A DNA stretch of 64,000 nucleotides from Eledone cirrhosa (taxonomy: Eukaryota): positions 183,396,001 through 183,460,000 of the forward strand of contig OZ024742.1 in assembly GCA_964016885.1 (NCBI GenBank), read 5' to 3'. A program made the position numbers and the translations under genes. The notes under the pieces were generated by a model, which was not told where the DNA came from, did no database searches, and saw only the letters and a program-made list of their open reading frames with translations. This document shows, piece after piece, positions 4,174 to 34,850 of the stretch (its first letter is position 1; every line of letters begins with the position of its first letter).

Positions 4174-4202
4174 GAGATCAAAAGATGGTTAAATGAGTTC
4201 CA

Positions 4203-4268
4203 TGTATTATGCGCATTTCAAAAACAAATATCATCATGCAATAACATTTGTGTTTTCATCAGATAAAA
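4203..4268 (-). ncRNA. Hammerhead ribozyme motif, family B (in fragment 4174-4312)
   Basis: Minus strand: TTTTAT CTGATGA [stem II] GAA ATGCGCAT A ATACA. Stem I has one mismatch. Confidence 0.7.
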
Positions 4269-4311
4269 TAGGACATGATATGAAGGTTAAAAAACACTTG
4301 TGGATAGTGCA

Positions 4312-4353
<42 letters not shown>

Positions 4354-4390
4354 CTACGTATATATATATGTATATATATATATATAGATG

Positions 4391-4441
4391 AGATTCTACA
4401 GGACTAGAACTGTTTCATTCTTTAGAAATCATCAGGAATCT
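4391..4441 (-). ncRNA. Hammerhead ribozyme motif, family A
   Basis: Exact reverse complement of 4485-4535. Confidence 0.8.
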
Positions 4442-4484
4442 GGGTATCAAAAAATAAGTATGGTATATATATTTTTTGATACCC

Positions 4485-4535
4485 AGATTCCTGATGATTT
4501 CTAAAGAATGAAACAGTTCTAGTCCTGTAGAATCT
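4485..4535 (+). ncRNA. Hammerhead ribozyme motif, family A
   Basis: AGATTC CTGATGA T-TTC-TAAA-GAA-T GAA ACAG-TTCTAGTC-CTGT A GAATCT: 6-bp stem I, 4-bp stem III, GUA site. Confidence 0.8.
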
Positions 4536-4775
4536 CATCTATATTAAAACTTTTATACTCTGCAATGTATTGAGTACCTTACTTACTGTGGTTACTTCCG
4601 ATTCAACCCGGAATAAGGTACTATATATATATATATATATATATAATGTAGGAGGTGAGTTTTATTGTAGTACAATAAAGCAATGCAGATATCGGATAAT
4701 AAACACTCTACAGTTTGTAGGACTGGAGTATACATAATATATAAGAACAAAAGATGGTTAAAAGAGTTCCATTTA

Positions 4776-4842
4776 TTTTATTATGCGCATTTCAAAAACA
4801 AATATCATCATGCAATAATATTTGTGTTTTCATCAGATAAAA
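4776..4842 (-). ncRNA. Hammerhead ribozyme motif, family B (in hairpin element 4645-5060)
   Basis: Minus strand: TTTTAT CTGATGA AAACACAAATAT..ATATTTGTTTTT GAA ATGCGCAT A ATAAAA. Stem III is palindromic. Confidence 0.8.
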
Positions 4843-4951
4843 CATGAAGACATGATATGAAGGTTAAAAAACACTATGTTAAAAAACACTATGTTGATTT
4901 AAAACTGAACTATCCACAAGTGTTTTTTAACCTTCATATCATGTCTTCATG

Positions 4952-5018
4952 TTTTATCTGATGAAAACACAAATATTATTGCATGATGATATTTGTTTTT
5001 GGAATGCGCATAATAAAA
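4952..5018 (+). ncRNA. Hammerhead motif, family B, core-mutated (GAAA to GGAA)
   Basis: Inverted copy of 4776-4842. Confidence 0.6.
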
Positions 5019-5049
5019 TACATGGAACTCTTTTAACCATCTTTTGTTC

Positions 5050-8273
<3,224 letters not shown>

Positions 8274-13112: not shown

Positions 13113-13118
<6 letters not shown>

Positions 13119-13233
13119 TTCTCTCGAATGAAACAGTTCTAGTCCTGTAGAAGCCTTTTATATATTAAATATCTATACTCTACTTTGCATTGAGTACCTT
13201 ACTTACTGTGGTTACCCCCGATTGAACCCGGGA
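13113..13233 (+). mobile_element. Family A HHR element, 5'-truncated inside the ribozyme core
   Basis: Similar to 4494-4613. Confidence 0.7.
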
Positions 13234-16552: not shown

Positions 16553-16680
16553 ATGATGATTTCCTTCAAATGAAACAGTTCAGGTCCTGAAGAAGCCATT
16601 TCTATATTAAATGTTGTATATACTCTACTATGTATTGGGTACCTTACTTTCTGTGGTTACCCTCGGTTGAACCAGGGATA
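16553..16680 (+). mobile_element. Family A HHR element, degenerate and truncated
   Basis: TGATGATTTCC..GAAACAGTTCAGGTCCTG..TATTGGGTACCTTAC..GAACCAGGG. Confidence 0.65.
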
Positions 16681-22302: not shown

Positions 22303-22418
<116 letters not shown>

Positions 22419-22422
22419 GATG

Positions 22423-22517
22423 AGATTCTACAGGACTAGAACTGTTTCATTCTTTAGAAATCATCAGGAATCCTGATGATTTCTAAAGAATGAAACAGTT
22501 CTAGTCCTGTAGAATCT
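22423..22517. ncRNA. Family A hammerhead pair, fused head-to-head (element 22417-22600)
   Basis: Minus-strand copy 22423-22472 is intact. The plus-strand copy (core from 22473) has a shortened stem I at the apex CAGGAATCCTG. Confidence 0.8.
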
Positions 22518-22665
22518 CATCTATATTAAAACTTTTATACTCTGCTATGTATTGAGTACCTTACTTACTGTGGTTACCTCCGATTCAACCCGGAATAACG
22601 TATATATATATATATATATATAGATATATATAGATATATATATATATATAGAGAGAGAGAGATAA

Positions 22666-34470: not shown

Positions 34471-34850
34471 ATATACACACACATGCACCCATGTATATAC
34501 ACATATACATATACATACATATGTACATGTGTATATACATATTTACACACTTTTGGATGGCCGTTGACTCTTATGAGTTACTGGGTTACATGTTACCAGT
34601 AGCACTCAAGAGTGACCCGACATAACATACATACATACATACATACATACATACATACATACATACATACATACATACATACATACATACATACAATACA
34701 GAGATCTTTATTTTATAATATAAATGACTTCTACAGTACTAGAACTGTTTCAATTTGTTTTCTGATTGTTGCATAAGTGTGCTCTGAAATGAATATTTTC
34801 AAATCTTACTTCCTCTTTAAGAACAATGAAATTGACTATTTTGTTATTTG

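What the first reader, a model, noticed from the sequence alone, without database searches (positions are those of the whole stretch)
4385..4620. Family A: perfect hairpin with a hammerhead on each strand
Arms 4384-4456 and 4470-4542 are exact inverted copies, each with a full HHR (6-bp stem I, 4-bp stem III, GUA). A near-identical copy at 22417-22600 has the same outer end (..CTCATCTAT into TA) but folds back about 20 nt later. Older copies lie at 13113, 16553 and 34722 (-). The high identity suggests recent activity. A read-through transcript would form dsRNA that sequesters the ribozyme.
Basis: partly seen in the sequence, partly recalled or inferred. Interest (0 to 1): 0.7.

Follow-up and report, generated by a model that had tools for sequence, protein, structure and literature searches.

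The report
Two-ended Penelope retrotransposon stub hairpin
The hairpin is real and is a 240-base head-to-head stub of a young Penelope-type jumping gene sitting in a TA repeat; sister copies, whose two arms share splicing state and private changes, show that such hairpins likely form when one uncut RNA is copied from both sides of a DNA break, and one such stub heads an array of ribozyme repeats sampled across about 377 kb.

Summary
Observation confirmed: exact 75-bp arms, each with a full type I hammerhead. It is no ribozyme element of its own. It is a very short insertion of a young Hydra-clade Penelope-like retrotransposon (intact 714-aa RT/GIY-YIG ORF): an inverted copy without tail, plus a forward copy with the tail, in (TA)n. 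That layout, opposite-strand hammerhead pairs and an intron ending in helix I are published. Family data add mechanism. 39 of 98 copies start at the first bases of stem I, 30 nt behind a TATA box; none start at the ribozyme cut. 12 junctions are precisely spliced against 724 unspliced; 4 of 9 spliced loci are spliced on both arms, none mixed. One locus shares four private A>G changes on both arms. So both arms likely come from one uncut RNA. A tail-bearing inverted arm heads a 78-nt hammerhead satellite of about 377 kb. This scan noted Hydra identity and two-ended copying before on other DNA of this genome; I found no note of this satellite or the splice tracer. No cleavage or RNA data.

The parts
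4316..4381 (.). (TA)n target, left flank
4382..4466 (-). inverted arm without tail, element positions -25 to +60 (+1 = first base of stem I)
4391..4441 (-). type I hammerhead motif, minus-strand copy
4467..4469 (.). 3-nt linker between the two truncated 5' ends
4470..4620 (+). forward copy with tail, element positions -15 to +136
4485..4535 (+). type I hammerhead motif; predicted cut after 4529
4485..4486 (+). first two bases of stem I: predicted transcription start (+1) and the AG that ends the parent's 2.3-kb intron
4552..4620 (+). tail: the parent's 5' untranslated region between the two fixed end points (+67 and +136); runs on into the ORF in full-length copies
4621..4646 (.). (TA)n target, right flank
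22414..22602 (+). second hairpin copy: arms 22414-22469 / 22471-22526, apex in stem I, tail to 22602
13114..13231 (+). older subfamily copy, starts inside the ribozyme core
16554..16680 (+). older subfamily copy, cut site changed
34713..34752 (-). short older remnant

Best explanation
The hairpin is a very short head-to-head insertion of a young Hydra-clade Penelope-like retrotransposon in a (TA)n tract, likely made when the element's protein nicks both DNA strands and copies one uncut RNA twice, from two fixed internal start points. Shown: parentage, the two fixed 3' ends (+60/+67 on one arm, +136 on the other), the TA target, and concordance of the two arms. Inferred: one cDNA is primed at +136 (arm with tail), the other at +60/+67 (arm without tail); each runs until it is cut short or falls off the RNA's 5' end, and the two ends are then joined. 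Most stubs stop at +1, the predicted capped start, so they are complete copies of the first 136 nt of the mRNA. The window's copy reaches -15 and -25, so its template was likely an unspliced read-through RNA that still held the end of the intron. The hammerhead is the parent's pLTR ribozyme; in the RNAs that were copied it was not cut. This copy has no promoter and is likely inert.
For: Parent: long copies run upstream into an RT + GIY-YIG ORF; in full-length copies the tail continues into the ORF; intact 714-aa ORF behind a pLTR in L055; Hydra motifs match the paper's text and printed proteins. Ends: 96 of 98 tail copies end at +132 to +143, 92 of 98 into TA-rich DNA; 46 of 51 adjacent inverted arms end at +56 to +74; raw reads of three other samples show loose ends at +67, +133 and +136 into TA and opposite-strand joints. 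Two primings: neither arm of the window copy is contained in the other; the tail-less arm reaches over 5 nt further upstream in 19 cases against 5 (24 ties, n=48, p=0.007). One template: arms differ by 1.9 per 50 nt within a locus against 3.5 between loci (36 pairs, 0 of 2000 permutations); 12 spliced junctions against 724 unspliced, yet 4 of 9 spliced loci are spliced on both arms and none shows an unspliced junction in the 3-3.5 kb fetched; L078 has four A>G changes, each in 1 of 92 copies, on both arms. Start: TATA at -30, CCAAT at -84; 39 of 98 starts at -2 to +5, 17 at +1, 0 at +46; G before +1 in 13 of 17 against 3 of 46 elsewhere. A related PLE protein nicks and extends both strands and starts at two internal sites in vitro, with uncut RNA as main substrate (PMC11167929, parts 1-2 read).
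Against: The start site is predicted only. In 7 of the 13 cases the G before +1 could come from the adjacent arm or a duplication, leaving 6 clear cases. 8 of the 11 starts at +2 sit on a near-palindromic 5-mer that favours joining there whatever the RNA end. The sample holds only one tail variant (98 distinct of 100 listed, 110 in all) and by design only copies with a tail. Concordant arms would also arise from two RNAs of one source locus that was itself spliced or edited, or from conversion between arms after insertion; 68 arm-specific against 33 shared variant sites show that arms also drift. Pfam gave no family for the RT piece or the EN piece and no tree was built, so the clade rests on motifs. 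The hammerhead fold is not the minimum-energy fold and only one base pair shows a two-sided change.
Confidence: 0.8

Rival explanations
1. Snap-back: a single cDNA primed at the tail folds on itself and is copied back, giving the second arm.
For: Explains arm concordance for splicing and private changes; 24 of 48 pairs have both 5' ends within 5 nt.
Against: The second arm must then lie within the first. In the window copy and in 19 of 48 pairs the tail-less arm reaches further upstream, in L036 by kilobases. The tail-less arm also ends at fixed points.
Confidence: 0.1
2. Two RNAs from the same source locus are copied by a protein dimer, one for each arm.
For: The related PAc protein is predicted to be a dimer; L016/L039 joins this family head-to-head to another family's ORF.
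Against: Both-arm splicing at 4 loci in two sequence variants, and four private A>G changes on both arms of L078, would each need a special source copy.
Confidence: 0.15
3. The hairpin is a self-masking ribozyme element or small-RNA source in its own right, mobilised or kept as a unit.
For: Read-through RNA would form a -141 kcal/mol hairpin; stubs are numerous.
Against: Apex positions differ from locus to locus, so hairpins are not copied as units; every base is parent sequence; the TATA box is lost in this copy.
Confidence: 0.04
4. Assembly or sequencing fold-back artefact.
For: Perfect arms inside microsatellites; no read was shown to bridge this particular apex.
Against: Fixed, unequal arm ends in 51 loci; opposite-strand joints in raw reads of three other samples; arm-to-forward joints in contigs of other runs.
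Confidence: 0.02

Closest known systems
Hydra clade of C-terminal EN+ Penelope-like elements, e.g. Hydra-1_Obim (Craig et al. 2021, PMC8557442; passages and supplement excerpts seen)
   Same: DKT, RW-basic, CxCX5C linker, CxxC and CxH around the EN end, no CCHH, hammerhead in the pLTR, (TA)n target, inverted 5'-truncated copy with a tail on one end only.
   Different: A different family from Hydra-1_Obim (other N-terminus and hammerhead); RWR for RWK; tail about 70 nt rather than 30-40; carries a 2.3-kb microsatellite-rich intron after the ORF, so the unit is about 4.7 kb unspliced and 2.4 kb spliced.
Drosophila virilis Penelope pLTR (PMC4209133 results read; PMC2377424 passages)
   Same: Intron end maps to the 5' strand of helix I, giving different hammerheads for spliced and unspliced RNA; introns kept in most genomic copies; opposite-strand hammerhead pairs 100-700 bp apart were noted in Schistosoma.
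   Different: There a 75-nt intron lies 46 nt after a TATA-less start. Here the intron is 2.3 kb, begins 86 nt after the stop codon and holds a TATA promoter, the predicted start is at helix I itself, and spliced genomic copies exist.
Poseidon PAc of Anolis (PMC11167929, parts 1-2 of 4 read)
   Same: Two internal reverse-transcription start sites bounding the tail; both strands nicked and extended; AT-rich target; ribozyme cleavage not needed.
   Different: Other clade; that work does not address how the inverted arm forms or whether both arms use one RNA in the parts read.
Metazoan non-LTR retrozymes (PMC7229834 passages; bioRxiv 10.64898/2026.07.22.740005 part 1 and passages)
   Same: Tandem type I hammerhead units; proposed to derive from PLE termini.
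   Different: The window element is not tandem. The C28 array is tandem but its unit is 78 nt (reported 170-400), it was found at one locus, and it is 97% identical to a living parent.

Membership tests
EN+ Penelope-like element | single ORF with RT and C-terminal GIY-YIG endonuclease | tested here: met
   714-aa ORF in L055 with YRDD and a C-terminal IVY..YIG core; by motif, Pfam gave no hit for the pieces tested
EN+ Penelope-like element | partial tandems (pLTR), inverted 5'-truncated copy, tail at one end | tested here: met
EN+ Penelope-like element | hammerhead in the pLTR | tested here: met
Hydra clade | DKT for DKG; RWK-type motif; CxCX5C linker; CxxC and CxH in the EN end; no CCHH | tested here: met
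   SDKT, RWR, CNCLNKEAC, CDLC, CMH; no CxxC inside the GIY-YIG core and no second His
Hydra clade | insertion into (TA)n | tested here: met
   92 of 98 copies
Hydra clade | generally under 3 kb | tested here: inconclusive
   about 2.4 kb without the intron, about 4.7 kb with it
Hydra clade | placement in the RT tree | not tested
   compared by eye only with proteins printed in the supplement
type I hammerhead ribozyme | conserved core and three stems | tested here: met
   descriptor; 95.8% of cells paired in 29 distinct copies, one two-sided change in stem I; core and leading AG were selection criteria for that alignment
type I hammerhead ribozyme | self-cleavage | not testable with these tools
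   no assay; fold is not the energy minimum; 0 of 98 copies start at the 3' product
non-LTR retrozyme (window element) | tandem non-coding units with a hammerhead each | tested here: not met
   inverted, single, and pure parent sequence
non-LTR retrozyme (C28 array) | tandem units with intact hammerheads | tested here: met
   119 of 200 sampled units intact
non-LTR retrozyme (C28 array) | circular RNA and spread to new loci | tested here: inconclusive
   all 553 junction matches on one strand, the 100 listed at one locus; no RNA data

The most novel reading that the evidence does not exclude
Penelope-like elements insert by priming both strands of the cut target on one capped, uncut RNA molecule at two internal sites. 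When the 5' copy of those sites is used, the result is a double 'run-off to the cap' hairpin, and such a stub can seed a hammerhead satellite or retrozyme, as at the 377-kb array on C28. Rare spliced and A>G-edited copies are natural single-molecule tracers that show it.
Probability: 0.55. Interest if true: 0.7.

Novelty: new member of a known kind. Interest (0 to 1): 0.45.

Why it matters
How Penelope-like elements build their inverted ends is named as open in PMC8557442. This family is young, has intact ORFs and carries natural tracers (splicing, A>G marks) that separate one-RNA twin priming from snap-back, so it gives a ready test system. It also offers a parent and a derived hammerhead array at 97% identity with the seeding junction still readable, which is the step that the retrozyme-origin hypothesis infers from trees. 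The window's hairpin itself is an ordinary, likely inert copy.

Tried and rejected
Rfam scan of the window: 0 hits. The repeat finder on the whole window was swamped by microsatellites. Free folding does not give the hammerhead (z about -0.2). Pfam did not recognise the family's RT or EN pieces. Run search: no RNA holder listed; this says nothing on expression. Reads laid on the window hairpin could not be tied to this locus and none was shown to bridge its apex. Insertions templated by the ribozyme's 3' product: 0 of 98 at +46, 1 within +44 to +48. An LTR-like jump of the short cDNA to the RNA's 3' end: the junction mark I looked for occurs twice, at one locus, so it has no support. The right end of the C28 array is cut by another repeat array, so I could not test whether it ends at +60/+67. 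The twin-hairpin start signal from earlier notes: small predicted hairpins lie just after +67 and +136, weak and not alike in sequence; conservation not tested. Paper searches for twin priming, strong-stop or same-RNA copying in Penelope elements and for octopus Penelope hammerheads listed nothing that states it, judged from listings only; the library lacks most subscription papers, and the preprint's supplements could not be seen.

Full report
Observation. The arms are exact and 75 bp long, 4382-4456 and 4470-4544, with a type I hammerhead on each strand. Both flanks are (TA)n. Below, +1 is the first base of stem I (window 4485). The forward copy covers -15 to +136, the inverted one -25 to +60, so ten of the thirteen loop bases are element sequence.

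Parent. The window lies in a 3.0-Gb animal genome; 'octopus-type' is my inference and the wording of earlier notes, not a tool result. A DNA search gave 311 candidates, 40 scored. Long copies run upstream through a microsatellite-rich stretch into an RT + GIY-YIG frame. A piece of that frame has 665 candidates, the 40 scored at 98-100% identity. In most of the 20 such loci fetched, the hammerhead and the tail continue into the ORF, with ATG at +182. L055 holds an intact 714-aa ORF. Its motifs (SDKT, RWR, CxCX5C, CxxC and CxH at the end, no CCHH) are those given for the Hydra clade and resemble by eye the Hydra proteins printed in that paper's supplement; it is not Hydra-1_Obim itself. Pfam did not recognise the pieces tested and I built no tree. 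An inverted 5'-truncated copy with a tail on one side is the published layout of these insertions, and opposite-strand hammerhead pairs were noted in 2014.

Ends. I sampled copies by an exact 21-nt word at the tail end: 110 matches, control 0, 100 listed, 98 distinct analysed. 96 end at +132 to +143. 51 have an adjacent inverted arm; 20 of these end at +56 to +63 and 26 at +66 to +74, where the aligner runs on into TA. Raw reads of three other samples put loose ends at +67, +133 and +136 and show opposite-strand joints. Two fixed internal end points match the two reverse-transcription start sites found in vitro for an Anolis element, which nicks and extends both strands.

Starts. A TATA box lies at -30 and a CCAAT box at -84; the TATA box is kept at -29 to -32 in diverged subfamilies. 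39 of 98 copies start at -2 to +5, 17 exactly at +1, none at +46, the start of the ribozyme's 3' product. 13 of the 17 have a G before +1 against 3 of 46 elsewhere, but only 6 are free of an alternative source. That an extra G marks a copied cap is recalled from L1 work, not from a call. 8 of 11 starts at +2 are joined through a near-palindromic 5-mer, as is the window's second copy. So most stubs are likely whole copies of the first 136 nt of an uncut RNA. I wrote this idea down before looking at earlier notes, which had reached it for other families.

Intron. Loose read ends pointed to a splice. A search found 12 exact junctions at 9 loci that join a point 86 nt after the stop codon to +3. 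In L053 the part removed is 2,330 nt, GT to AG, 60% microsatellite; 724 copies keep the donor. The acceptor AG is +1/+2 of stem I, so splicing cuts the stem to 4 bp (predicted -0.2 against -4.2 kcal/mol). An intron ending at helix I is known from D. virilis.

One template, two primings. Four of the nine spliced loci are spliced on both arms, two more have a second arm starting at +3, and none shows an unspliced junction in the stretch fetched; L174's arms are 100% identical over 218 bp. In L078 both arms carry four A>G changes, each seen in 1 of 92 copies, which looks like RNA editing. Arms are closer within than between loci. Snap-back would explain this, but it needs the second arm to lie within the first; the tail-less arm reaches further upstream in 19 pairs against 5, and in the window copy neither arm contains the other. 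Two primings on one RNA fit best. A spliced or edited source locus, or later conversion between arms, is not excluded.

Array. A 76-78-nt go-back joint in reads led to 553 exact junction matches, the 100 listed all on C28. Ten stretches between 30.4967 and 30.8737 Mb all hold head-to-tail units of about 78 nt, -13 to +65; if continuous, about 4,800 units. Of 200 sampled, 62 have a hammerhead identical to the window's and 119 are intact. The array begins with (TA)n and an inverted, tail-bearing arm reaching about -13, the window's geometry. Recurring spacings suggest growth at DNA level; no dispersal or RNA was shown, so I call it a hammerhead satellite that meets the tandem criterion of a retrozyme only.

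Verdict. Shown: parentage, ends, target, splicing, arm concordance, array. Inferred: capped start, single template, order of priming. Untested: cleavage, expression, long-read support of this locus. Earlier notes of this scan report Hydra identity, cap run-off and two-ended copying on other DNA and retrozyme arrays of 359-536 nt; two word searches showed no note of this 78-nt array or of both-arm splicing. New member of a known kind; interest 0.45.

Noticed in passing
G000:C28:30496700-30873700 (L176-L182, L190, L191, L194): Satellite of about 78-nt hammerhead units of this family, headed by an inverted tail-bearing arm and ending against a tandem array of another hammerhead repeat.
   Followed up: partly
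window 4183-4313, 4647-5055, 18608: A second family with a hammerhead (long stem II, palindromic stem III), also as fold-back; 4647-4735 matches the region before the ORF of a Hydra-type element nested in this family's intron in L035.
   Followed up: partly
window 13879 (-) and 13988 (+): Head-to-head hammerhead pair of a third family; the same sequence forms the tandem array next to the C28 satellite.
   Followed up: no
L016 / L039:1480-3150: This family's tail and hammerhead are joined head-to-head, at a short microhomology and without TA, to a truncated ORF of another PLE family with a Pfam GIY-YIG hit: two-RNA insertion or later deletion.
   Followed up: partly
L017 / L018: Perfect palindrome with tails on both arms and a TA core flanked by pieces of the +53 to +67 region.
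   Followed up: no
L078; L131: Clusters of sense-strand A>G changes (four, one of them at the cut site; three in the tail), suggestive of RNA editing fixed in DNA.
   Followed up: partly
L187, L188: Two neighbouring copies with tails facing each other share a 2-nt duplication at +1 found nowhere else.
   Followed up: yes
window 24177, 33819, 47657, 58041, 60838: Further hammerhead descriptor hits of other families; the window also holds 200 N.
   Followed up: no
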